Source of the DNA: Patescibacteria group bacterium | Lineage (GTDB): Bacteria > Patescibacteriota > Patescibacteriia > JBDRGY01 | Assembly (NCBI GenBank): GCA_043817315.1 | Contig: JBDRGY010000004.1 | Coordinates: 797 to 64,796 of the forward strand | DNA length: 64,000 nucleotides | Direction of reading: 5' to 3' | Notes under the pieces: generated by a model | The model's input: the letters and a program-made list of their open reading frames with translations, nothing else | Told to the model about the DNA's origin: nothing | Databases searched by the model: none | Program-made: the position numbers and the translations under genes | In this document: positions 21,003 to 37,959 of the stretch, piece after piece | How the letters are laid out: every line of letters starts with the position of its first letter | How positions within the stretch are numbered: the stretch's first letter is position 1

Positions 21003-21821
21003 ATGGATATAATATGCTCAATTATTGCCGGTATCATTCAGGGCGTTACAGAATTCCTGCCAATTTCTTCGTCCGGTCATCTTGTATTATTTCATCAACT
21101 GGTTGAATTTGAAGTGTTAAACGACTTGCTTTTTGATGTGGTGCTGCATTTGGGAACTCTGATTTCTCTGCTGATCTATTTCCGGAAAGATATTGGTAAA
21201 TACATAATAGCCTTTTTTCAAAGTTTTGCAAAGTGGCAGTTAAGAGATAACCTGGATCAGCGTTTAGCCTGGTTTATTGTTATCGGAACCATCCCGGCTG
21301 TAGTTCTGGGATATTTTCTGGATAATATTTTTGAGAATTTTTTCCGTCAAACTTATTGGGTAGCTATTATGTTGATTTTGGTGGCCATTTTATTTTATGT
21401 TCTAGAAAAGATTGCTCCCAAGAATAAGGATTTTAGCGCCCTCAATGTCAAGAATACATTGATGATTGGCTTGGCCCAGGCTATTGCCCTGATTCCCGGG
21501 GTTTCGCGCTCCGGTATTACCATTTTAGCTGGCATGGGTAGCGGTTTAACCAGGCAAATGGCGGCCCGTTTTTCCTTTTTATTATCAATTCCGGTTGTTT
21601 TGGGAGCCGGGCTGAAGAAATCACTAGAGATGACCAGCTATTCCCTTGATGCGGCAACAACCGGGGTTCTGGTAGCAGGTTTTCTGGCTTCAGCTATAGC
21701 TGGTTATGTCTGTATCAAGTATTTCCTGAGATATCTACAAAAAAATACCCTGAAACCATTTGCCATCTACCGCATCTTTCTGGCCTTGGTGGTTTTCGGG
21801 TATTTTTATATATTTAGATAA
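20988..21821 (+). CDS. uppP: undecaprenyl-diphosphatase
   Basis: VTEFLPISSSGHLVLF canonical BacA/UppP motif. Confidence 0.9.
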   Translation: MKKIHMDIICSIIAGIIQGVTEFLPISSSGHLVLFHQLVEFEVLNDLLFDVVLHLGTLISLLIYFRKDIGKYIIAFFQSFAKWQLRDNLDQRLAWFIVIGTIPAVVLGYFLDNIFENFFRQTYWVAIMLILVAILFYVLEKIAPKNKDFSALNVKNTLMIGLAQAIALIPGVSRSGITILAGMGSGLTRQMAARFSFLLSIPVVLGAGLKKSLEMTSYSLDAATTGVLVAGFLASAIAGYVCIKYFLRYLQKNTLKPFAIYRIFLALVVFGYFYIFR

Positions 21822-23382
21822 TTTTGACTATCTCGGGAACTCTTTCCAGGAAATGGAAACGCATCAGCAGTAAAGCAATAGTCAGTCCAGCTACCAGCAG
21901 GGTTTGTAAAATCGTGGGAGCGTGCTGAACTCTGACTTTGATCAGGATATTCAACAGTAAAGCGATTATAATAAAGGCTAAGAATATTTCGTAGAAACGC
22001 TTGGTGAAATTAATAACTTTTTCCACCAAGTTTTCTTTTTTATCGGGTTTAATCTCCGCCACTATATGGGCAGAAGTGGTCTGATCTTCGTTAACGTTGG
22101 AGATAGACTGATTGGTATTGGCGTTTAGGTTGGTATTGGTTATCGTTGCTGGGGGAGTTTCCTCGGTAACAGGAGCGGTTACTTCTTGCTGGGGTTCGGC
22201 CGGAGCAGGTTCCGGTTCGGCATCTGTAGCTGATTCGATTACCGGTATGGCAGTAACGGTTATGGGAATAGAAAGATCCCCGCCGGGAATAAAGGTGACG
22301 TTCTCAGCGACCAGTTGAAAATCCTCTACGTATTCCCCCGGCTCATCCGGTGCTTGAAGGGCAAAGGTAAAGCGACCAGTTTCAGATACGCCCACTGATT
22401 GATTATCTAGACGGGTAGCACGATAAAACTGTTCATCCCAATAATTATGTTTGAAAGGACTGACCCGTCCTGGCGGGTTAGTAACATTTATAGCTACAAA
22501 GTATTGGCCGGTATTGCTCCAAGCAACAGTTCCGGTATTTTTGAAATCAGCCCAATAAGTTAGAGCTTTTCCGGCTTGCAGACTGACTCTTTGGTAGCTT
22601 TGAGCTACTAATTCAGTAGCATAGGATTCTGCCAGAGATTCAGCCGGAGGTGCTGGTGGAGCTACTGGTTCTGGGGTTGGGGTTGGTTCGGGGGTTGGTT
22701 CGGGGGTTGGTTCGGTCACCGGTTCAGGCTCTTCTTCTTGGGAAGGAGTAGTCACCGGTATGGCCGGTTCTGGTTCGGGCACATAAGAAGCTCCGAAGAA
22801 CTGGACACAGACAATAGTTTTACGCCCTTCGATTTCTCCGGCCAGAACAGCCACTCCGATTTCTTTATAACTGGAATTAACAATATTTTTACGATGAGTG
22901 GGAGAAGCCATCCAGGCGTTGACCACATCTTCAGCTTCGATAAAGTCCATCGCCAGATTTTCCCCAGCGTAAGTGTAGACATATCCTGCGTTTTTAAACC
23001 AATACCAAGGTGTAGTTCCCGAAGGTGAAGTATGGGCAAAATAGTTAGTAGCTACCATATCCTGGGCCTTAGCCATGGCTGCCTGATTAAGAACTGAGTT
23101 TTGAGTTAAGGTGGCCAAGCCCTCTCCAACCCTGGCTGAATTGGTCATATTAATAATGTTGGCGGTGGTTATGGAGGCAAATGATGCTTCATCTGGGTAG
23201 GAAAAGAAAAAGAATGAAGTAGTAACCAACTTAACAACAATTAACAGAGCACTATAAAATCTTAGAGCACCCGGACGTAAAGCGTGTGGTTTATGATTAT
23301 TGCAGACATTGGGAATAAAATAATGATTGAAATTATTATTTCCCTCTTTACATCGCACCAGGTTTTTCGGCTCGTATCCCAT
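21814..23382 (-). CDS. membrane-anchored CAP/SCP (YkwD-like) domain protein with PT/PE-rich linker and C-terminal domain
   Basis: NYFAHTSPSG...GENLAMDF...AWMASPTHRKNI CAP motifs. (EPTP)n linker. C-terminal TM helix. Confidence 0.7.
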   Translation of the reverse strand: MGYEPKNLVRCKEGNNNFNHYFIPNVCNNHKPHALRPGALRFYSALLIVVKLVTTSFFFFSYPDEASFASITTANIINMTNSARVGEGLATLTQNSVLNQAAMAKAQDMVATNYFAHTSPSGTTPWYWFKNAGYVYTYAGENLAMDFIEAEDVVNAWMASPTHRKNIVNSSYKEIGVAVLAGEIEGRKTIVCVQFFGASYVPEPEPAIPVTTPSQEEEPEPVTEPTPEPTPEPTPTPEPVAPPAPPAESLAESYATELVAQSYQRVSLQAGKALTYWADFKNTGTVAWSNTGQYFVAINVTNPPGRVSPFKHNYWDEQFYRATRLDNQSVGVSETGRFTFALQAPDEPGEYVEDFQLVAENVTFIPGGDLSIPITVTAIPVIESATDAEPEPAPAEPQQEVTAPVTEETPPATITNTNLNANTNQSISNVNEDQTTSAHIVAEIKPDKKENLVEKVINFTKRFYEIFLAFIIIALLLNILIKVRVQHAPTILQTLLVAGLTIALLLMRFHFLERVPEIVKII

Positions 23383-23631
23383 TGTTTTTATTATAGATTA
23401 ATTCCCTAATTTTTAACAGGTTATTATAGACTAAAAATCATAAAATGTCAACCCCGAAACAAATTTATGATTTCTGAACCCTTTTTTGGGCCCCTTTTTT
23501 AAACTAGCATTTTATTATATATTGAAACGCTATATTATTTCTGGTTTGTTTATACATTTATGTACAAATAGACCCAAATCTTATCAGTTACGGAAAATTT
23601 GTTACGGGGTCAAGGCTTGCTGGTTTTGATA

Positions 23632-23661
23632 CAAAAAAACGGGACAGTCAGCCCCGTTTTT
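23632..23661 (-). terminator. rho-independent terminator after the sortase gene (hairpin is bidirectional-capable)
   Basis: AAAAAAACGGG-acagtcagc-CCCGTTTTT. Confidence 0.6.
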
Positions 23662-23678
23662 ATTATAGGAAAGTATTA

Positions 23679-24314
23679 TTAGATTAGTTCACCGATTACC
23701 ACTAATCGTTTGTCAGTGGAGAACAGGGGAGTGCAGGTAAATAGAGTAACTCGGGGAGTTTCTGTTGCTTCTTTGATACTGATTTCATTGGGTTCGACGA
23801 TTTTAGTTTCTGTTACTACATAATCGTATTCTTGCTCTTGCCAGTAAACAATGAAATTATCGCCATTGGTTATTTTGTCCAGGAGATAAAAGGTTTGGCT
23901 GGATGGGGGGCGGTAGCGAAAGCGATGAGCTGAAATCACCATATTACTGCCATCTACCGGATCGCTGGTATCGGGCAAATGCCAAGCTCCTTGATTGAGA
24001 CAAAGGCCCTCATTGGTACCTTCAATGATTTTGATATAGACCCCGATTTTAGGAATCACCAGATAGTTTTCCAGAGGAATACCTGCTTCGTTGAGGGGAA
24101 TACTGCTTTCTCTCCGTTCAATATCCGGCAAAGTGCTTGATTCTTCTTCATTAACTAATTGAGTGGGAAACGGGTAGTACGGTTCGGGTTCACTGACGCT
24201 ATATTTTATCAAAGGAAAAAAGGGATAGCTGATGACCACTATCCCGATGACAATTAAGGCTATGGCAAGTATCTTGAGCGCTTTGCGTTGTTGCCCAGTC
24301 AGGGATTTAGTCAA
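23679..24314 (-). CDS. sortase (transpeptidase)
   Basis: N-terminal TM anchor. VISAHRF His motif. TLFTCTP = TLxTC catalytic Cys motif. Confidence 0.75.
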   Translation of the reverse strand: MTKSLTGQQRKALKILAIALIVIGIVVISYPFFPLIKYSVSEPEPYYPFPTQLVNEEESSTLPDIERRESSIPLNEAGIPLENYLVIPKIGVYIKIIEGTNEGLCLNQGAWHLPDTSDPVDGSNMVISAHRFRYRPPSSQTFYLLDKITNGDNFIVYWQEQEYDYVVTETKIVEPNEISIKEATETPRVTLFTCTPLFSTDKRLVVIGELI

Positions 24315-24346
24315 TTTTCTACCCCTTTTTCCTTATATAGTAGTTT

Positions 24347-26914
24347 TTAAGCGCGTTTGTGGGCGAAGCTGTATATGGTGATACCACCGGCAATCAACAT
24401 CAGGGCAAAAGCAGCCAGCAGCCAATCCATCATAGTAGCTCCGGTTTCAGTAAGATCGTCTTCAGCACCTAAAACTTGTCCCGCTCTGACTTCCAGGGAG
24501 ACTTTATCATTGACATCATTGACATCGTCAGCTGAAGCAACGGCCAGGTTGATGTATTTGCCGTTCTGCATGGAGGCATCTACTTTTACTTCATAGGTAA
24601 CATCTTTGACTTCACCTGGTACTAGATCACCCAATTCCCAAGAATGGGTATAGCTACCAGATTCGGTGAAAGTGAATCCTTCAGGCAAGATATCAACCAA
24701 TTTGACGTTGAGGGCTGGTGCTTCACCAACACTGGTCACTGTGACCGTGTAGTTGGCAGTACCACCCGGATTGACCAGTTCTTTATCTACGGTCTTTTCT
24801 ATTGCCAGTTCGGATCCGGCTTCTTCACCTAAGACAGTAGGCACTCTAACGTCTATTTTGGCGTCATCAGAAACATCGTCGTGGTTATCGGCTTTAGTGA
24901 TAGCCACATTATCGTATTCTCCTTCACCGAGATTGCTGTCTACATAGACTGTGTAGTTGATTGAATGGTCATCACCAGCAGCTAGAGTGCCAATATCGAA
25001 CATCTTCACTCTTTCACCGGTGTTGGCTCCATTTTCGTAGAAGTAGAGACCAGCTGGCAGAGTATCGGTGACGGTGACGTTCTCCGCTTGGCCTTTACCG
25101 GAATTGCTAACGGTAACAGTATAATCAACTGTCTTTCCAGGATTGGTCAGAGTGGTGCCAGTAGTCTTTAGGATTCCCAGGGAAGGCAAGGCCAGAATAG
25201 TTGTCTCTTCCTCAGCCGTAGCAACAACGTACATTTGTCTGGTGGCTGCCATAGTAAAGTCCGCTTCAACTCCATTTTCCACAACATCATACTCCGTGCT
25301 CAGAGTGGCTTCGTTGATCAAGACAGTGGCATCATCTATTCCACTATTAACCTCAACATCTATCCAAACGGAACCTGAGGCTACTGCTTCACGGAAACCC
25401 AAGTCCCAAGTGACAGTATGGGTGGCTGCGTCATAGGTGCCGCCGTCTGAGTCTATGTAAGTAACCTCAGCCGGTAGCGGATCTGTTAGGGTCAGATGAA
25501 TAGCATACCCTTCAGTCAATTCCCAATCGAGGGTATAACGGAAGGTTTCCGCTTCCATAACCGGATCAGCGCTGTCGGTTTTGTCCAGAGCGAGAACCGG
25601 TTCCACAATCGGCTCAGCTGTTTGGTAATTGATGAAATTATACATTGTCGGCTCTTCTTCAAAGCCGGTATTGGATTGGATATTTACCATGTGTCCATCT
25701 ACTGGAGACAGAGCGGCCCAGCCCTCTTGCATGGTTTCAGTTACCATGTAATCACCAAATTTTAGACCAGTAAATTCGTAATAACCATTTTCATTAGTAG
25801 TTTCACAGTTATCTTCCGGTAGCAAGCCAACCACATTCGCTACAAAATCTCCTTCTGGTGGTTGAACACTTTCTAGCACATCCAGACAGATTTCCCAGCC
25901 CGGTAGGGGAGTATCTGAACTATCGTATTTATAACCGGCAATACGTCCCGGATGGATGTTGCCGAAGTTGCACATAATAGGCACGTCTCCCACAAAGTTT
26001 TCTTCTAGTTCTTCTGTGCAAGTGCCTTCATTATCGTAAGGTAGGGTAACCCAATGGCAGGCATCAGCTTCAGGACTGGTTTGGTTCCAGCCCGGTTGTC
26101 CTACTTCACAGATGTGATAGGTTCCTCTTTCCAGGTTCTCGAACCAGTACCAACCTAGATGTTGTGGATCTGAACTAGTTACCATGGTATCAATCGGATT
26201 CTCCAGATCACTTTCTTTATAGAGTTTGATTGTCCAACCAGGTAGCTTCGGATCATCGTTGTCTTTACCGTTAATGTTCAAGTCGTTGAACTTGTAGCCA
26301 TGGATTGAGTACGTCGGAACAGCGACATTAAAGCCAACGCAGTAGTATTCACCGCCAGAGACTGCATTTATATAATCGTAATTATCGTAGTTTAATACAT
26401 CTTCGTCGCAGTAGAATTCTGCACTAATGGCTTCGCCATTTGCATCACCTGTGTTTCCGCCATGGAATGGCACATAGCCGGCTTGTAAAACTTCACGGAA
26501 CCAGACAGTTGCGCCAGCACCAACATTAATTGTTGTTGATGAGCCAAAAGTAGTCCAGTTTCCGCCAGCAGTACCAATAAGTGTATCGCCAGCATCGGAA
26601 ACCTGTCCATCAAATCCCCATTCAAATTCCCAGTCATCAACTAGTTCACAACCCTCGTGGGTATCGGCCCAAATCTGTGCAGTTGAAGAGGTAATTGCAC
26701 TACCGCCATCACCCCAGTCCGGTAGTTTGGATTCATCATCGCAGACAACTTTGTAAGCTGTGATGGTAGCTTCTACGCTTACAGCCACAGCTCTTTCCGG
26801 AGCCAGAAATAAAACACTCGCCGAACTCATATAGACGACGAGAGTGATATTAACAATCAGATTAGTGGTTTTAATTAGTTTTTGTTTCCATACTTTCTTG
26901 GTTGTTTGACTCAT
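24347..26914 (-). CDS. large cell-surface protein with Cna-B/SdrD-like and DUF11 repeat domains and a C-terminal sorting signal
   Basis: Signal peptide. GYKFNDLNINGKDNDDPKLPGWTIKLY (Cna B-like). Repeated TVTVxNxGxGxAxNVxVxDxLPxG (DUF11). C-terminus DDLTETG + 25 hydrophobic residues + HKRA. Confidence 0.75.
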   Translation of the reverse strand: MSQTTKKVWKQKLIKTTNLIVNITLVVYMSSASVLFLAPERAVAVSVEATITAYKVVCDDESKLPDWGDGGSAITSSTAQIWADTHEGCELVDDWEFEWGFDGQVSDAGDTLIGTAGGNWTTFGSSTTINVGAGATVWFREVLQAGYVPFHGGNTGDANGEAISAEFYCDEDVLNYDNYDYINAVSGGEYYCVGFNVAVPTYSIHGYKFNDLNINGKDNDDPKLPGWTIKLYKESDLENPIDTMVTSSDPQHLGWYWFENLERGTYHICEVGQPGWNQTSPEADACHWVTLPYDNEGTCTEELEENFVGDVPIMCNFGNIHPGRIAGYKYDSSDTPLPGWEICLDVLESVQPPEGDFVANVVGLLPEDNCETTNENGYYEFTGLKFGDYMVTETMQEGWAALSPVDGHMVNIQSNTGFEEEPTMYNFINYQTAEPIVEPVLALDKTDSADPVMEAETFRYTLDWELTEGYAIHLTLTDPLPAEVTYIDSDGGTYDAATHTVTWDLGFREAVASGSVWIDVEVNSGIDDATVLINEATLSTEYDVVENGVEADFTMAATRQMYVVATAEEETTILALPSLGILKTTGTTLTNPGKTVDYTVTVSNSGKGQAENVTVTDTLPAGLYFYENGANTGERVKMFDIGTLAAGDDHSINYTVYVDSNLGEGEYDNVAITKADNHDDVSDDAKIDVRVPTVLGEEAGSELAIEKTVDKELVNPGGTANYTVTVTSVGEAPALNVKLVDILPEGFTFTESGSYTHSWELGDLVPGEVKDVTYEVKVDASMQNGKYINLAVASADDVNDVNDKVSLEVRAGQVLGAEDDLTETGATMMDWLLAAFALMLIAGGITIYSFAHKRA

Positions 26915-27102: not shown

Positions 27103-27132
27103 ATAATAAAAGAGCAGGTATTCTACCTGCTC
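27103..27132 (-). terminator. rho-independent terminator (downstream of 27143..27760)
   Basis: GAGCAGGTA-gaa-TACCTGCTC followed by TTTTATTAT on the minus strand. Confidence 0.6.
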
Positions 27133-27142
27133 CCGGAAAGAA

Positions 27143-27760
27143 CTAAGTGGCTTGCTGCCAGCGTTTGCCGGTGATGAACCGGCCGAAGTGGGGCCAAAAG
27201 GACCAGCGAAGGTTGTGAACCAGAGCCTGTAACAAGATCCAAACAGCCCAGCTACCCAGACAAACTAACAGTCCGGCAGTAGGCCCGGCTCCTAGCCATA
27301 TGTATAAACTGATGATGGCTCCGCGGAACAAAAGTCCGTTGGGACCGCTAACGATGATTGTGGCAAATCCGTAGTAGGCGAAACAGATGAGCATACAGGT
27401 AGTGACCGCATCTCTGTAGTTGAAAAGATAGAGAATGAAGGCCATGAAGGCTCCAATCATGAAACAGGCCACAGGCACCATGGTGGAACCCATGACAAAT
27501 TCTGACCGGTGATTCTTGATTTCGGGATCGAACTTGATGTTAAGGAAGCTGGCGGTCATGGTGAGGGCGACTAAGGGAACATAGACAAGATCCCAAAGCC
27601 GGCTGACTGGCTGGAAAGTCCAGCTATAGAATTGCCAACCTTGACTGGGAATCGATCCGGCAATCAGATGCCAGATCATCCAGAAGGCAGAGATGGTGAC
27701 CAGACTGAACAACGGCCAACGCCAACACAACTGCCATTTCCTGACAGTGACCTGATCCAC
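27143..27760 (-). CDS. Trp-rich polytopic membrane protein (5-6 TM), possible small-solute transporter S-component-like
   Basis: Hydropathy only. No signature motif recognised. Confidence 0.45.
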   Translation of the reverse strand: MDQVTVRKWQLCWRWPLFSLVTISAFWMIWHLIAGSIPSQGWQFYSWTFQPVSRLWDLVYVPLVALTMTASFLNIKFDPEIKNHRSEFVMGSTMVPVACFMIGAFMAFILYLFNYRDAVTTCMLICFAYYGFATIIVSGPNGLLFRGAIISLYIWLGAGPTAGLLVCLGSWAVWILLQALVHNLRWSFWPHFGRFITGKRWQQAT

Positions 27761-27985: not shown

Positions 27986-28486
27986 TTAGATATTTTGAGG
28001 GTCAGCAAATAGAGCGACAACCAGGATGGAATCCCTTCCATCAATTTTTCCTTTTTGATAAGCAATGCCGATTTCTTGATATTCCGGGGACAGAATCAGT
28101 TTACGGTGAGAAGGACTTTGCATCCAAGCATCGTGAGCTTCAGTCAGATCAACGTAATCCATGGCCAGGTTTTCCCCGGCTTTAGCATAAGGGTAACCAA
28201 CTTTTTCCAGGAAATGCCAGGGACTCTTACCCCAGGGAGAAATATGATCAAAATAGTTATGGTCAAACATATCAGCTAATTTCAATTGAGCCGCCTGCTG
28301 CAGCTTATCGTTCATTGCCAATGACGGCAAACCAAAGTTAATTCTGGCTTGATTGGTCAGGTCAACCAGGCCAGGGGAGTAATCAGCAATTCCTTCGGAA
28401 CTAGTAGGTATCAAAAAAAGCAGGACCGCTAAAAAGCCTACTTTAAGTGATAAAAAAATGATTCGGTTGTCACCCTGTCGTTTCAT
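27986..28486 (-). CDS. secreted CAP/SCP (YkwD-like) domain protein
   Basis: Signal peptide. HNYFDHISPWG...GENLAMDY...AWMQSPSHRKLIL. Confidence 0.7.
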   Translation of the reverse strand: MKRQGDNRIIFLSLKVGFLAVLLFLIPTSSEGIADYSPGLVDLTNQARINFGLPSLAMNDKLQQAAQLKLADMFDHNYFDHISPWGKSPWHFLEKVGYPYAKAGENLAMDYVDLTEAHDAWMQSPSHRKLILSPEYQEIGIAYQKGKIDGRDSILVVALFADPQNI

Positions 28487-35028: not shown

Positions 35029-37287
35029 TTATAGGCTGATTTGGAATAGCTTAGTTTTATTAAGTAGGTAGATTGTTGCTTCATCATCGGTAACCACAAA
35101 GTCTTTGAGTCCATCAAATTGATCCGATCGGTATTGATTTATCAACAGACCTTTTTTATCCAGTATCACTAAGCGATTATTTTCTGGATCTAGAACGTAG
35201 ATGTTGTCCAGTTCCGACCGAGTGTAGATGCGAGTGGAGTTGGATAGGGAGGGCTCAAACTGACCAAGGGTAAATTCATCTTTAGCCCCCTGGGTCAATT
35301 TCCAGATCTGGCCGTCAGCCTTTAAGACATAAATATTACCATCGATAGTTATTGAAGTTGCATCGGTCAGATCCAATTCTTCAGTTATCCAGGATTGACC
35401 AGAAGCATACCCGGTAGCAGTGGCATTGTGGCGGAAGATTTGATTATTCTTGGTGTCAAGAATATAAAGCCGTCCCGCGAAACTTTCTAAGTATCCGACT
35501 TGCTTATCTTGGTTGGCAAAGCTAATTTCTCTCTCGACCAGACTACCATCAGCCAAGGCAAATCTGGCAATCTTATCAGAATTGGTGTAGAACACAATAT
35601 AGTTATTATCCGAAGGAATAGCCTTCATCTGGAGGTTGCCGATTTCTTCCGTGGTATTAGTCACAATATCGGATTCTTTAGTCTCCAGATCATAACCGTA
35701 GATAGAATTATTATTGGGATTAAATGAATATATTTTGCCATTGATTAAAGTAATTCCTCTAACTGCAGCTCCTTCTTCGGCCGTGGCGAAATCAAACACT
35801 TCGGTAGGTTCAGTAATATTATTGATATGATTTATTTTATCTGACTTTTCTCGAATTGACTTATTAAACTGAGCAATCTGATCTTGGAATTGTTTTTTAT
35901 CCGGTAATTGGCCGACCAGATCCCGGGCAACATTGAGGATAGCCAGGGCTTTTTGGTCGTCTCCGTAGATAAGGGTGGCATCAATCTCGGCCAACTTTTG
36001 ATCAATGTCGGTAATTATCTGATTGTATTCTGTGGTTACTTTTTCTTTCTCCTGTCCCTCTCCTAGCGTAACTATGCTTTGGGCGAAACCGAATATGAGG
36101 ACAAAAGCAATGATCAGCAAGGCCTTTCTCTGAGTGGGTAGGCCCCGGAATTGTTCAATCCAGGTGGCCAGATTAACCGCCACTTTATCGGGAAAACTTT
36201 TTAGTTGCTGACGGGATGTTTTCCAGTTTTTGAAAAAGTTATAGATCCCCAAAAGTCCTTTGGTGATCAGTAGGAAGATGCCTTTGATAATATTCCAAAA
36301 AACCATGGCAATTCTTAGCAGCAGGTTGCCCTCCTTTTCTTCTTTGTATTTGGGTTCCTGGCTGGGGCGTACTTTCTCGGGATAAGATTTCTCTTCTTTG
36401 GTCTGGCGCAGGACTTTCTCATTAAAAAATGCCCTGGCCTTATCCGTGCTGGCCAGCAAGTTTTTCTTAACAGCCGGCCACAAAGAGGGGGTAAGTAATT
36501 CGGAAGTTTGTCGCTCTCTGGTTTGTAATTCGTCCATTGAAACTTGAGGAGCCGAGTACTGTGAATGTTCCAGATGGAGGGGCATATAGGTTTTCTTGGC
36601 CTCTGCTTCGGTCAGGGCATGAACGATTAGGGCGGCAAAAGTAGTTCTCTGGTTGGTATCAATCAGCAAGTTTTCAATGTAGGCGGCAGCGTCCTGAGGC
36701 CGGGAACCGGAAATTGTTCTTTTAAGTTTTTCTTGGGAGACAAAATCAAAAAGGCTGCTGGTGGCACAAAGCAAATAATCACCTTCGGCCAGCTGTCCCG
36801 AGACGATATTGGCAAATATTTTTAGAGGATTAATTTCTATTTCGGCAGGAGTTTGAGAAGCCTCCAGGATATCGACAATCTTGGGTCCGTGAATTAATAA
36901 GGCTTTCATGGTTCCCAGCTGAGTAAGGTGAAGTTCGTTATCTTTGATAACGGCGATAATAATATTCAGTTTATCCACCCAGTTGGTCAAACCGTCCTGG
37001 ATAAGTTGGTGCAGTTTTTCATTGGTTTTCTGCAGGGCGTTTTCAAAAGCAGTCTCAATGTTAAGATCAGACGATTGATAATAATGTTTTTTGACTTCTT
37101 CTTGAATGGTGTTGATGATATCCTGATTTATCCTGTCCTGGGAGTGGATGTCGGTAATAATCAGTAGTTTTCCAAAAGTGTCTTCTTCCACCGGGGTGGG
37201 ATGGGAAATATAAACATTGCCGGTTGACTGTGATTTGTCCGGGTCGTATATAAGAAACTTGTCTACAACGATAGTGGTTTTACTCAT
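35029..37287 (-). CDS. membrane protein with N-terminal PP2C-like phosphatase domain, TM helices and C-terminal beta-propeller-like repeats
   Basis: PP2C-like ...NIIIAVIKDNELHLTQLG...GDYLLCATSSLFDFVS. Two TM segments mid-protein. Repeated IYxLDxxNNxI units at the C-terminus. Start placed at MSKTTIVV (37287) rather than the listed 37404. Confidence 0.5.
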   Translation of the reverse strand: MSKTTIVVDKFLIYDPDKSQSTGNVYISHPTPVEEDTFGKLLIITDIHSQDRINQDIINTIQEEVKKHYYQSSDLNIETAFENALQKTNEKLHQLIQDGLTNWVDKLNIIIAVIKDNELHLTQLGTMKALLIHGPKIVDILEASQTPAEIEINPLKIFANIVSGQLAEGDYLLCATSSLFDFVSQEKLKRTISGSRPQDAAAYIENLLIDTNQRTTFAALIVHALTEAEAKKTYMPLHLEHSQYSAPQVSMDELQTRERQTSELLTPSLWPAVKKNLLASTDKARAFFNEKVLRQTKEEKSYPEKVRPSQEPKYKEEKEGNLLLRIAMVFWNIIKGIFLLITKGLLGIYNFFKNWKTSRQQLKSFPDKVAVNLATWIEQFRGLPTQRKALLIIAFVLIFGFAQSIVTLGEGQEKEKVTTEYNQIITDIDQKLAEIDATLIYGDDQKALAILNVARDLVGQLPDKKQFQDQIAQFNKSIREKSDKINHINNITEPTEVFDFATAEEGAAVRGITLINGKIYSFNPNNNSIYGYDLETKESDIVTNTTEEIGNLQMKAIPSDNNYIVFYTNSDKIARFALADGSLVEREISFANQDKQVGYLESFAGRLYILDTKNNQIFRHNATATGYASGQSWITEELDLTDATSITIDGNIYVLKADGQIWKLTQGAKDEFTLGQFEPSLSNSTRIYTRSELDNIYVLDPENNRLVILDKKGLLINQYRSDQFDGLKDFVVTDDEATIYLLNKTKLFQISL

Positions 37288-37392
37288 ATTTATACCTATA
37301 TTATGATACGAATATGCTTCTAAGGCAAATGGCTTGAATTTGTGGGGCAACAATATTATACTATAAATATAACAACTAATAAATGCGGGAAA

Positions 37393-37959
37393 ATGCTTGA
37401 ACACTTATTTGGTTCACGGACCAGAGTTAAATTGCTTCGATTATTTCTGTCCAATCAGGAAAGAGCCTTTTTTGTCCGGGAATTAACTCGCAAAATTAAT
37501 GAGCGTATAAATTCTGTTAGGCGCGAACTGACCAATTTAGAGAAAATAGGAATTATTATCAAGAGAACAGAGAAGAGAAAAGTTTATTACCAAGTCGATA
37601 AAGAACACATCCTTTATCAGGAATTAAGAACTTTGATCTTAAAAGCGGAAGTTGGCTTGGAGAGAAGCTTGGCCCGTACCATTAAGAATATCGGAAATGT
37701 TCGGCTGATGGTTTTAACCGGTATGTTTACCGGCATGAAAGAAGAAACCCAGACTGACATGTTAATCGTGGGTACAATTAACCGAAAAAAGTTAGCTAAC
37801 CTGATGATAAAGTTTCAGACTGACTTTGGTCGTCAGATCAACTATACCGTGATGACTTCCAAAGAATACAAATACCGCAGTGATTTAACGGACCGATTTT
37901 TATTCAACATTCTGGAGAACAATAAAGTTGTCTTGGTGGATAAGATAAATACGGAATAA
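37393..37959 (+). CDS. winged-helix transcriptional regulator-like protein
   Basis: MLEHLFGSRTRVKLLRLFLSN...FFVRELTRKIN N-terminal wHTH pattern. Start at internal ATG. Confidence 0.5.
   Translation: MLEHLFGSRTRVKLLRLFLSNQERAFFVRELTRKINERINSVRRELTNLEKIGIIIKRTEKRKVYYQVDKEHILYQELRTLILKAEVGLERSLARTIKNIGNVRLMVLTGMFTGMKEETQTDMLIVGTINRKKLANLMIKFQTDFGRQINYTVMTSKEYKYRSDLTDRFLFNILENNKVVLVDKINTE

What the first reader, a model, noticed from the sequence alone, without database searches (positions are those of the whole stretch)
23679..26914. Sortase operon with a large DUF11/Cna-B surface protein carrying a non-canonical LTETG sorting signal
The 855-aa protein has a signal peptide, isopeptide-type Cna-B-like and DUF11 repeats, and a C-terminus of DDLTETG, then 25 hydrophobic residues, then HKRA. 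This is a tripartite cell-wall sorting signal, but the pentapeptide is LTETG rather than LPXTG or LAXTG. The co-transcribed downstream gene is a TLxTC sortase, followed by a terminator. This suggests a dedicated sortase-substrate pair with altered motif specificity.
Basis: partly seen in the sequence, partly recalled or inferred. Interest (0 to 1): 0.55.

Follow-up and report, generated by a model that had tools for sequence, protein, structure and literature searches.

The report
Patescibacteria sortase with proline-less LTETG substrate
This is a real two-gene operon in an uncultivated Patescibacteria (CPR) bacterium: a stalk-like surface protein and the sortase predicted to fix it to the cell wall. 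Its odd LTETG tag is one example of a sortase family in which the normally conserved proline position varies freely, so it is a modest variant rather than a special re-engineered pair.

Summary
An 855-aa secreted protein (24347-26914, minus strand) ends in DDLTETG, then 26 mostly hydrophobic residues, then HKRA. A 211-aa sortase (23679-24314) starts 32 nt downstream and is followed by a strong terminator.

In five lineages of the same clade the tag is L[TS][DE]TG, so the pentapeptide is correctly placed. One sister lineage has lost four residues (…GAEDTG).

Sixty substrates sit next to this Patescibacteria-specific sortase clade (about 628 clusters at 50% identity). Position 2 of their motif is Ala 24, Pro 14, Val 9, Thr 5, Gly 2, Glu 2, Ser 1, Ile 1, ambiguous 2. 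Single sortases sit beside two substrates that differ at this position. Sortases 81% identical pair with LPATG or LAATG. Only Thr-Gly is nearly constant. This points to relaxed position-2 recognition, not a dedicated altered specificity.

The sortase reaches no curated class cut-off. It is nearest class C but has no lid motif and no C-terminal anchor. The substrate is six tandem isopeptide-type Ig-like domains.

Verdict: new variant of a known kind, moderate interest.

The parts
24347..26914 (-). Gene for the 855-aa surface protein, the sortase substrate. It is 100% identical to NCBI 'hypothetical protein ABIB97_02875 [Patescibacteria group bacterium]'.
   Evidence: ORF; Pfam and NCBIfam domains; identical database protein P0121.
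26780..26914 (-). N-terminal export signal, residues 1-45: MSQTTKKVWKQKLIKTT, a hydrophobic core, then AVA|VS.
   Evidence: Read from the sequence and conserved in the orthologues of L081 and L082. No signal-peptide predictor was available, so cleavage is inferred.
26315..26785 (-). Domain of about 150 aa with no Pfam match (residues 44-200). It has a CnaB-like beta-sandwich, a candidate isopeptide triad K55/E141/N196 and two Cys pairs.
   Evidence: It recurs at 40-53% identity in many large CPR proteins. K, E and N are invariant or nearly so in alignment A3. The AF2 model has pLDDT 89. Foldseek hits to pilin CnaB-type domains are weak: 2xid, 5f44, 2l4o, E 6e-4 to 1e-3, TM 0.36-0.45.
25625..26305 (-). 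Two CnaB-type domains: SdrD_B-like (residues 204-320; K208, E270, N316/319) and SpaA/prealbumin-like (residues 324-430; K329, E393, N426/429).
   Evidence: Pfam SdrD_B 41.6 bits and SpaA 45.8 bits; motif positions.
24470..25603 (-). Three DUF11/CLIPPER (CnaA-like) domains with K/D/N triads: K445-D478-N534, K584-D617-N669, K707-D741-N789.
   Evidence: Pfam DUF11 141 bits in 3 stretches, plus TIGR01451 and TIGR04226. The spacing matches K715-D748-N806 of the solved CLIPPER domain 9IFR (PMC12617251).
24440..24454 (-). Sorting pentapeptide LTETG (residues 821-825). The predicted scissile bond is Thr824-Gly825.
   Evidence: It is conserved as L[TS][DE]TG in L085, L081, L082 and L087.
24350..24439 (-). 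Membrane-retention segment: 26 mostly hydrophobic residues (ATMMDWLLAAFALMLIAGGITIYSFA) plus the basic tail HKRA.
   Evidence: The post-motif pattern [AVTF][GS]xx[DE][YWLF] is conserved across the family.
24315..24346 (-). 32-nt intergenic spacer with an AAGGGG ribosome-binding site 7 nt before the TTG start. It contains no terminator.
   Evidence: Sequence; scan.
23679..24314 (-). Gene for the 211-aa sortase. It has an N-terminal membrane anchor (residues 15-37) and a YPFFP juxtamembrane motif. The catalytic residues are His130 (DNA 23925-23927), Cys194 (23733-23735) and Arg203 (23706-23708).
   Evidence: Pfam Sortase 84.8 bits; invariant H/C/R in 77 sequences; AF2 pLDDT 88.7; Foldseek hits to sortase crystal structures at E about 1e-12.
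23630..23667 (-). Intrinsic terminator after the sortase gene: a GC-cored hairpin flanked by an A-run and a U-run.
   Evidence: RNAfold -17.2 kcal/mol, z -5.0, none of 200 shuffles as stable.
23423..23451 (-). Perfect sigma-70-type promoter match (TTGACA-17-TATAAT) in front of the CAP-domain gene.
   Evidence: 12 of 12 consensus positions. This is a consensus match only.
21814..23382 (-). Gene for a 522-aa CAP/YkwD-domain membrane protein, a conserved downstream neighbour of this sortase clade. Its role is unknown.
   Evidence: Pfam CAP 69 bits. A homologue lies directly downstream on the same strand in 40 of 77 related sortase loci. One also follows the fused substrate-sortase gene and lies in L086.

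Best explanation
A Patescibacteria (CPR) cell-envelope operon encodes a surface protein and the sortase that processes it.

Proposed mechanism:
1. The 855-aa protein is exported by its N-terminal signal.
2. It folds into a rod of six tandem isopeptide-type Ig-like domains: one CPR-specific CnaB-like domain, two CnaB-type domains and three CLIPPER/DUF11 domains.
3. It is held in the membrane by its C-terminal hydrophobic segment and HKRA tail.
4. The membrane-anchored sortase encoded 32 nt downstream cuts between Thr824 and Gly825 of LTETG, using Cys194, His130 and Arg203.
5. The sortase transfers the protein to an amine acceptor, most likely the peptidoglycan precursor.

The sortase belongs to a Patescibacteria-specific clade that fits none of the curated classes A-F. 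Its sorting signals keep Thr-Gly, and usually Leu at position 1. Position 2 is free to be Ala, Pro, Val, Thr, Ser, Gly or Glu. LTETG is one point in that spectrum, not a private code.

Shown here: the genes, domains, catalytic residues, operon structure, conservation of the motif position, and family-wide position-2 variability.

Inferred: cleavage at T-G, the wall acceptor, isopeptide bond formation, and any role in surface display or attachment.
For: - Gene pair, spacing, ribosome-binding site and terminator.
- Sortase identity: sortase domain with invariant H/C/R; confident sortase fold that matches crystal structures.
- Tripartite signal at the C-terminus. It is the only such ORF, and this is the only sortase, in 64 kb.
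- Clade relatives keep L[TS][DE]TG.
- 46 of 77 related sortase loci have a substrate with x-x-x-[TS]-G, a hydrophobic stretch and a basic tail immediately upstream.
- Position-2 spectrum among 60 substrates: A 24, P 14, V 9, T 5, G 2, E 2, S 1, I 1, ambiguous 2.
- Two substrates differing at position 2 sit beside one sortase. Sortases 81% identical pair with LPATG or LAATG.
- At least 10 independent single-ORF fusions join a substrate (LPxTG, hydrophobic stretch, basic patch) to a sortase. One was verified on contigs from two samples.
- Peptidoglycan machinery is in the window: a PBP transpeptidase and BacA/UppP.
- DUF11/CLIPPER is an experimentally shown isopeptide stalk domain (PMC12617251), and the K/D/N spacing matches here.
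- A sortase family was already known to be present in more than half of CPR genomes (PMC6744442).
Against: - There is no biochemical evidence for any CPR sortase.
- The acceptor and the wall chemistry of this organism are unknown.
- Clade-specific motif styles ([ATV]V[DE]TG, LG[IL]TG, L[TS][DE]TG) could instead mean that each subclade has its own narrow specificity.
- Genomes can hold more than one sortase. For example, L026 and L040 come from one genome assembly. Adjacency to two different substrates therefore does not prove that one enzyme handles both.
- The rest of this genome could not be scanned for other substrates or sortases.
- Neither the LPXTG-anchor model TIGR01167 nor Pfam Gram_pos_anchor matched at E <= 0.01.
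Confidence: 0.7

Rival explanations
1. One reading: this sortase has evolved a dedicated specificity for Thr/Ser at position 2 (LTxTG/LSxTG). It would discriminate against LPXTG and LAXTG and form a private enzyme-substrate pair.
For: Five of seven clade sequences keep Thr or Ser at position 2 and an acidic residue at position 3. Motif style tracks sortase subclades on the tree; for example, [ATV]V[DE]TG goes with sortases carrying FTCHPLFS. The gene pair is co-transcribed and isolated by terminators.
Against: Position 2 switches among P, A and T between sortases 70-81% identical. It also differs between two substrates flanking one sortase. A sister lineage with a 63-65% identical sortase has lost Leu and Thr entirely yet keeps the operon, in two independent samples. 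P, A, T and S are the four NCN codon families, one first-base change apart, which fits drift at a weakly constrained site (inference).
Confidence: 0.15
2. Pilus polymerase reading: the sortase acts like a class C enzyme and joins copies of the 855-aa protein head-to-tail into a covalent fibre, rather than simply anchoring monomers.
For: Class C sortases are the best hits by profile (NF033745 89.6 bits; PDB 8t28 70 bits) and by structure. The gene is clustered with its substrate, as in pilus islands. The substrate consists only of pilin-type CnaA/CnaB domains, and its N-domain weakly resembles pilin D1 domains. Kerfeldbacteria relatives have one large and one ~225-aa substrate per sortase.
Against: The score is far below the class C cut-off (89.6 against 160). 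None of 77 clade members has the DP[FWY] lid motif. All but two end 6-15 residues after the catalytic Arg, so they have no C-terminal anchor. The substrate has no YPK pilin motif. Class A and class E structures score almost as well as class C.
Confidence: 0.1
3. The C-terminal segment is only a membrane anchor, the LTETG is fortuitous, and the sortase acts on other proteins encoded elsewhere.
For: The canonical LPXTG-anchor models do not match. The rest of the genome is unseen.
Against: T-G sits at the same offset from the hydrophobic segment in 60 substrates beside this sortase clade. Recurrent translational fusions join such substrates to the sortase. The motif is conserved in clade relatives.
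Confidence: 0.04

Closest known systems
Class E sortases and their LAXTG signals (e.g. Streptomyces coelicolor SrtE1, PDB 5CUW; Thermobifida fusca SrtE)
   Same: These use proline-less sorting signals, have an N-terminal membrane anchor and serve as housekeeping-type anchoring enzymes of monoderm bacteria. SrtE1 accepts both LAXTG and LPXTG (PMC5148588). Ala is also the commonest position-2 residue among substrates of this CPR clade. NCBI labels some clade members 'class E'.
   Different: The class E model scores 55.9 bits against a cut-off of 160, and 5cuw scores only 48.7 bits by profile. Position 2 here also takes Thr, Ser, Val, Gly and Glu. The gene is operonic with its substrate. The clade is from Patescibacteria, not Actinobacteria. 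The class E Tyr in the beta3/beta4 loop was not checked.
Class C pilin-polymerising sortases (e.g. GBS SrtC1 4G1J/3RBI, Actinomyces oris SrtC2 8T28)
   Same: They are the best sequence and structure matches (30-36% identity over about 135 residues). They are encoded next to substrates built of isopeptide-type CnaA/CnaB domains.
   Different: This clade has no lid motif and no C-terminal anchor. It scores below the class cut-off. The substrate has no pilin YPK motif, and the signal is not LPXTG.
Class A housekeeping sortase SrtA with LPXTG
   Same: The chemistry implied by the His/Cys/Arg triad and TLxTC motif is the same. The signal has the same three parts, and the topology is the same.
   Different: Class A enzymes strongly require Pro at position 2 (established knowledge; also stated in PMC5148588) and are usually not linked to one substrate gene. 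No class A NCBIfam model matched at E <= 0.01.
DUF11/CLIPPER fibrillar adhesins (PMC12617251)
   Same: They have tandem CLIPPER repeats with the Lys/Asp/Asn isopeptide signature, CnaB-type domains, a signal peptide and a C-terminal sorting domain.
   Different: No recognisable adhesive head domain was found. The N-terminal domain is itself a stalk-like module that occurs internally in other CPR proteins.
Other naturally divergent sortase motifs: Clostridioides difficile SrtB (S/P)PXTG, Bacillus SrtD LPNTA, class B NPQTN (recalled from established literature, not re-checked here)
   Same: They show that sortase pentapeptides differ between lineages while keeping Thr at position 4.
   Different: Those motifs are fixed within a class. 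Here position 2 varies within one clade and even within one locus.

Membership tests
Sortase superfamily (Pfam PF04203, cysteine transpeptidase) | Sortase domain above the curated cut-off | tested here: met
   84.8 bits against 26.6; TIGR01076 81.8 against 39.35.
Sortase superfamily (Pfam PF04203, cysteine transpeptidase) | Catalytic His, Cys in TLxTC, and Arg | tested here: met
   H130, C194 (VTLFTC) and R203 are invariant in 77 aligned homologues.
Sortase superfamily (Pfam PF04203, cysteine transpeptidase) | Eight-stranded beta-barrel fold | tested here: met
   AF2 pLDDT 88.7. Foldseek matches sortase crystal structures at E about 1e-12.
Sortase superfamily (Pfam PF04203, cysteine transpeptidase) | Cleavage of the T-G bond and transpeptidation | not testable with these tools
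   This needs an enzyme assay.
Class C (pilin) sortase | NCBIfam NF033745 at or above 160 bits | tested here: not met
   89.6 bits.
Class C (pilin) sortase | Lid with DP[FWY] motif before beta1, and a C-terminal membrane anchor | tested here: not met
   None of 77 members has the motif. All but two proteins end 6-15 residues after the catalytic Arg.
Class C (pilin) sortase | Substrate with a pilin motif Lys (YPK[N]) | tested here: not met
   There is no YPK in the 855-aa protein.
Class E sortase | NCBIfam NF033747 at or above 160 bits | tested here: not met
   55.9 bits.
Class E sortase | LAXTG substrates | tested here: inconclusive
   The window substrate is LTETG. Across the family LAxTG is the commonest form (24 of 60) but far from exclusive.
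Class E sortase | Conserved Tyr in the beta3/beta4 loop (SrtE1 Tyr229) | not tested
   No residue-level alignment to 5CUW was obtainable with the tools as used.
Class D / class GN / SrtD-type sortases | NCBIfam class cut-offs | tested here: not met
   Class D 61 against 165; LPxTATN SrtD 72.3 against 140; class GN 35.1 against 158.
Canonical LPXTG cell-wall sorting signal | LPXTG pentapeptide | tested here: not met
   The motif is LTETG, with Thr at position 2. TIGR01167 and Pfam Gram_pos_anchor were not among hits at E <= 0.01.
Canonical LPXTG cell-wall sorting signal | Hydrophobic stretch plus a positively charged tail at the extreme C-terminus | tested here: met
   26 residues followed by HKRA.
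DUF11/CLIPPER isopeptide domain | Pfam PF01345 above cut-off and a Lys/Asp/Asn triad at CLIPPER spacing | tested here: met
   141.4 bits against 24.6, 3 stretches. K-D spacing is 33-34 and K-N spacing 82-89, against 33 and 91 in 9IFR. Bond formation itself was not tested.
Fibrillar adhesin | Stalk of tandem repeats plus a distinct adhesive domain | tested here: inconclusive
   The stalk is present. No adhesive head was identified; the N-domain resembles CnaB stalk or pilin domains only weakly.

The most novel reading that the evidence does not exclude
The Patescibacteria sortases form a distinct class beyond A-F with four properties. (a) Recognition rests mainly on an x-[DE/x]-T-G core plus the following small residues, and it tolerates loss of both Leu and Pro (GAEDTG, [ATV]V[DE]TG). 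(b) The enzyme works together with a conserved CAP-domain membrane protein encoded just downstream. (c) It sometimes occurs as a self-processing substrate-sortase fusion. (d) It displays the isopeptide-stabilised stalk proteins that these ultrasmall epibionts use on their surface.
Probability: 0.3. Interest if true: 0.6.

Novelty: new variant of a known kind. Interest (0 to 1): 0.4.

Why it matters
About 90% of known sorting signals carry Pro at position 2 (PMC5148588). Changing that preference in SrtA took 11 mutations in directed evolution (PMC5148588).

A natural clade of about 628 clusters at 50% identity may tolerate Ala, Pro, Thr, Ser or Val at that position. Such a clade would be a useful source of enzymes for protein ligation.

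Enzymes that tolerate other residues at position 2 would also mean LPXTG-based predictors miss many wall-anchored proteins of Patescibacteria. The surface proteins of these organisms are central to their lifestyle attached to host bacteria.

For this particular locus the gain is modest. It is one more sortase-substrate pair, now placed in that context.

Tried and rejected
- **Tail search.** A database search with the 55-aa C-terminal tail, meant to find paralogous substrates from the same genome, returned nothing because no words were shared. Other substrates in the genome therefore could not be enumerated.
- **Class assignment.** I tried NCBIfam, a PDB profile search and Foldseek. All put class C first. 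No cut-off is met, and classes A and E follow closely, so no class is assigned.
- **Pilus reading.** I looked for a lid motif, a C-terminal anchor and a YPK pilin motif. None is present.
- **Terminator.** The simple scan found no terminator after the sortase gene. Folding the region showed a strong one. The scan's hit at 24222-24245 lies inside the sortase coding sequence (codons for GIVVISYPFFP) and is treated as chance: 10 sites found against 6.7 +/- 2.7 expected.
- **Literature.** The terms LTETG, LTXTG, LTDTG and LTTTG occur in no paper of the held library. Searches for sortase with CPR, Patescibacteria, Parcubacteria or Microgenomates found only passing mentions and no analysis of motifs. 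A search linking CAP or YkwD domains with sortase found nothing relevant.
- **VLG tripeptide.** I considered that the VLG before the motif is part of the signal. I rejected this because its distance to T-G varies from 1 to 7 or more residues, so it is more likely the end of the last domain.
- **Covariation.** I did not attempt a covariation analysis between sortase residues and position 2. With about 60 phylogenetically clustered pairs it would be confounded.


Full report

Yes, at exactly the stated coordinates. Window 24347-26914 (minus strand) is an 855-aa ORF. Window 23679-24314 (minus strand, TTG start) is a 211-aa ORF.

The large protein starts with a Lys-rich stretch, about 21 hydrophobic residues and AVA|VS. 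This looks like an export signal by sequence; no predictor was available. Its Pfam hits are DUF11 (141 bits, three stretches), SpaA (45.8) and SdrD_B (41.6). NCBIfam adds the DUF11 repeat and the TIGR04226 isopeptide domain.

Its C-terminus is ...VLGAEDD-LTETG-ATMMDWLLAAFALMLIAGGITIYSFA-HKRA. LTETG is residues 821-825 (DNA 24440-24454). It is followed by 26 mostly hydrophobic residues and a basic tail.

The small protein scores 84.8 bits on Pfam Sortase against a cut-off of 26.6 and carries VTLFTC.

The two genes are 32 nt apart. The gap has an AAGGGG ribosome-binding site and no terminator. Folding the 48 nt after the sortase stop gives a hairpin of -17.2 kcal/mol (z = -5.0, none of 200 shuffles as stable) flanked by a U-run. 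The simple pattern scan had missed this hairpin.

In the whole 64-kb window there is one sortase and one ORF ending in L..TG, a hydrophobic stretch and a basic tail. They are neighbours.

**2. Whose genome is it?**

The substrate is 100% identical to NCBI 'hypothetical protein ABIB97_02875 [Patescibacteria group bacterium]' on a 136,977-bp contig. Sortase homologues are nearly all from Patescibacteria/CPR metagenome-assembled genomes.

The window also encodes a PBP transpeptidase and BacA/UppP. A peptidoglycan pathway, the usual sortase acceptor, is therefore present.

**3. Is LTETG the true motif?**

I fetched the neighbourhoods of the closest sortase relatives.
- L085 (sortase 91% identical) has an identical tail, ending in LTETG.
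- L081 (74%, a fully syntenic 47-kb contig) has DDLSDTGAGVWDW.
- L082 (64%) and L087 (63%) have DDLTDTGAG.WDW.

The pentapeptide position is therefore conserved as L[TS][DE]TG.

One sister lineage was seen in two independent samples (L001 and L086, sortase 65% identical). It has ...VLGAED--TGAGLWDW. This is a four-residue deletion that removes Leu and Thr, yet the sortase and downstream gene remain intact.

**4. The family picture**

A profile scan of one genome per species returned 80 loci with relatives of this sortase.
- Of 77 sortase genes with enough upstream sequence, 46 have a co-oriented ORF ending in x-x-x-[TS]-G, a hydrophobic stretch and a basic tail within 3.6 kb upstream, in most cases directly upstream.
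- After removing three spurious ORFs, 60 substrates remain, including the window's.
- Position 1 is Leu in 49 of them. Position 4 is Thr in 57. Position 5 is Gly by construction of the search.
- Position 2 is Ala 24, Pro 14, Val 9, Thr 5, Gly 2, Glu 2, Ser 1, Ile 1, ambiguous 2.

For comparison, about 90% of known sorting signals carry Pro at position 2 (PMC5148588).

Thr at position 2 arises independently in other subclades: LTDTG in L012, LTTTG in L032, LTPTG in L052.

Several single sortase genes are flanked by two substrates that differ at position 2: L006 LPKTG + LAATG, L012 LTDTG + LATTG, L032 LTTTG + LAETG, L044 LPATG + LATTG.

In the Kerfeldbacteria subclade, orthologous ~225-aa substrates carry three different motifs. 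LPATG (L044) and LAATG (L040) sit beside sortases that are 81% identical. LTDTG (L012) sits beside one that is 70-73% identical.

Pro, Ala, Thr and Ser are the four NCN codon families, so they interconvert by one first-base change. This fits drift at a weakly constrained site (inference).

Motif styles do track subclades: [ATV]V[DE]TG with sortases carrying FTCHPLFS, LG[IL]TG in L002/L009, and L[AP]xTG-F[SD]xxE[LF] in Falkowbacteria and Parcubacteria. Some co-evolution therefore cannot be excluded.

After T-G, the pattern [AVTF][GS]xx[DE][YWLF] is widely kept.

**5. What kind of sortase?**

No curated class cut-off is reached:

| NCBIfam model | Score (bits) | Cut-off (bits) |
|---|---|---|
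| Class C | 89.6 | 160 |
| LPxTATN SrtD | 72.3 | 140 |
| Class D | 61 | 165 |
| Class E | 55.9 | 160 |
| Class GN | 35 | 158 |
| Class A, B, F | no hit at E <= 0.01 | – |

A profile of 16 family members against PDB sequences puts class C first (8t28, 70 bits). Class D (2ln7, 50.6), class E (5cuw, 48.7) and class A (about 45) come behind.

An AF2 model built from 77 homologues is confident (pLDDT 88.7). Foldseek again lists class C structures first (E about 1e-12, 30-36% identity). S. pyogenes class A and T. fusca class E follow within about 30-fold in E-value.

The class C hallmarks are absent. None of 77 members has a DP[FWY] lid motif before beta1. All but two proteins end 6-15 residues after the catalytic Arg, so there is no C-terminal anchor.

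The clade has its own signatures:
- a juxtamembrane YP[FL]xP motif, with both prolines invariant;
- HRF[RKQ]Y[RL]PP after the catalytic His;
- TC[TH]PLF[ST]T;
- an invariant Trp111.

Against 1.84 billion representative proteins the clade profile finds 23,735 sortase-like proteins at E <= 1e-3 and 628 at E <= 1e-30. The latter is roughly the size of this clade at 50% clustering.

NCBI's own names for members are inconsistent: 'sortase', 'class D', 'class E', 'sortase A'. The literature notes that most sortases remain unassigned to a class (PMC8703055). It also notes that a sortase family is present in more than half of CPR genomes (PMC6744442). I found no paper in the held library that discusses CPR sorting motifs, and none containing LTETG or LTXTG.

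**6. What is the substrate?**

It appears to be six tandem Ig-like domains, each with an intact candidate isopeptide triad by sequence:

| Residues | Domain type | Candidate triad |
|---|---|---|
| 44-200 | CPR-specific, no Pfam match | K55 / E141 / N196 |
| 204-320 | SdrD_B-like | K208 / E270 / N316 or N319 |
| 324-430 | SpaA-like | K329 / E393 / N426 or N429 |
| about 438-565 | CLIPPER | K445 / D478 / N534 |
| about 577-690 | CLIPPER | K584 / D617 / N669 |
| about 700-815 | CLIPPER | K707 / D741 / N789 |

The CLIPPER spacings match Lys715/Asp748/Asn806 of the crystallised CLIPPER domain. [quoted passage not shown]

The N-terminal domain recurs at 40-53% identity, often internally or in tandem, in many large CPR proteins. 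Some of these carry peptidoglycan-binding domains. Its K, E and N and four Cys are invariant or nearly so. It models confidently (pLDDT 89). It resembles CnaB-type domains of Gram-positive pilins only weakly (E 6e-4 to 1e-3, TM 0.36-0.45).

No adhesive head and no YPK pilin motif were found.

**7. Independent support for the pairing**

Among the best 150 representatives of the clade, at least ten unrelated clusters are single ORFs. In each, a DUF11-type protein ending in LPxTG, a hydrophobic stretch and a basic patch runs straight into the sortase's own membrane helix, the YPxxP motif and the catalytic domain. The topology is self-consistent: outside, membrane helix, inside, membrane helix, outside.

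One fusion (P0131) is present on contigs from two different samples.

These fusions tie this substrate type to this sortase clade. They also show that the clade handles Pro at position 2.

**8. A conserved third gene**

The 522-aa protein encoded downstream (21814-23382) has an N-terminal hydrophobic segment, a CAP/YkwD domain (69 bits), Pro/Thr-rich linkers, a weak Ig-like match and two C-terminal hydrophobic segments.

A homologue lies directly downstream, co-oriented, in 40 of 77 related sortase loci. One also follows the fusion gene. In the window it has its own perfect -35/-10 match and lies after the sortase terminator. The link is therefore by conserved neighbourhood, not by shown co-transcription. 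Its role is unknown.

**9. Verdict**

The mechanism most consistent with the evidence has four steps:
1. Sec export of the protein.
2. Retention by the C-terminal anchor.
3. Cleavage of Thr824-Gly825 by the adjacent sortase.
4. Transfer to the wall.

All four steps are inferred from family knowledge. None is shown for any CPR sortase.

The claim of a dedicated, altered specificity is not supported. The better reading is a Patescibacteria-specific, unclassified sortase clade with relaxed recognition at position 2, of which LTETG is one instance. A pilus-polymerase role is a minority possibility.

It is a new variant of a known kind, of moderate interest.

Noticed in passing
window 21814-23382 (-); also L001, L004-L008, L010, L011, L013-L018, L022-L025, L030-L032, L081, L083, L086 and others: A ~500-aa CAP/YkwD-domain membrane protein gene lies directly downstream of the sortase, co-oriented, in 40 of 77 related loci, and also after a fused substrate-sortase gene. 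A second, small CAP protein (window 27986-28486) lies upstream of the operon here and in L081 and L082. No literature link between CAP domains and sortases was found.
   Followed up: partly
P0131/P0128 (L083 5001-7988, L084 340-3327); P0194, P0202, P0210, P0228, P0246, P0248, P0249, P0262, P0288: These are natural single-ORF fusions. A DUF11-type surface protein with LPxTG, a hydrophobic stretch and a basic patch runs directly into the sortase membrane helix and catalytic domain. They occur in at least 10 independent clusters, and one was confirmed on contigs from two samples. They may be self-processing 'autosortase' proteins.
   Followed up: partly
L001 1-2019 and L086 1-210: A sister lineage of the window's clade has a four-residue deletion in the sorting signal (VLGAEDTGAG instead of VLGAEDDL[TS][DE]TGAG). 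This leaves no Leu at position 1, yet the sortase and the CAP gene are intact.
   Followed up: partly
L004, L005, L007, L010, L011, L013, L015: A whole sortase subclade (active-site context FTCHPLFS, plus a long low-complexity insert before the catalytic domain) is paired with 1,100-2,000-aa substrates. Their motif is [ATV]V[DE]TG-AG, without Leu or Pro.
   Followed up: no
L012, L020, L027, L029, L040, L044 (Kerfeldbacteria): Each sortase is preceded by two substrates. One is large (up to about 1,700 aa) with LATTG. The other is ~225 aa with LA[AE]TG, LPATG or LTDTG followed by [VIL]GQLD. The layout recalls tip plus shaft or base pilin gene sets. A different ~345-aa membrane protein, not the CAP protein, follows the sortase in several of these loci (L012, L021, L044; also L002, L009).
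   Followed up: no
window 26315-26785 (-), protein residues 44-200: A conserved ~150-aa domain with no Pfam match (consensus ...AxKVVCDxExxLPNWG...WxFEW...WVREV..GYxPF...SAEFYC..DVLNYDNYD...YYCVGFN). It is widespread, often in tandem, in very large CPR proteins, including ones with PG_binding_1 domains and a conserved non-sortase C-terminus (...PTGxxYxTT...IN...CP).
   Followed up: partly
window 27143-27760 (-): A 205-aa, GTG-start, Trp-rich multi-pass membrane ORF lies between the small CAP gene and the substrate gene. It has no Pfam or NCBIfam match and no homologue in any of the related loci, and it is absent from the syntenic contig L081. A terminator-like hairpin (27110-27134) follows it.
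   Followed up: no
window 24222-24245 (-): A terminator-like hairpin plus T-run lies inside the 5' part of the sortase gene. It is formed by the codons for GIVVISYPFFP, the conserved YPFFP motif. It is probably fortuitous.
   Followed up: no
L001 and many loci among L004-L080: Record titles assign contigs carrying this CPR-type sortase module to 'Pirellulales bacterium' (L001) or 'uncultured Gammaproteobacteria bacterium' (many TPA_asm assemblies). These are probably binning or labelling errors.
   Followed up: no
window 35029-37404 (-): A 791-aa ORF with no Pfam match at E <= 1e-5.
   Followed up: no
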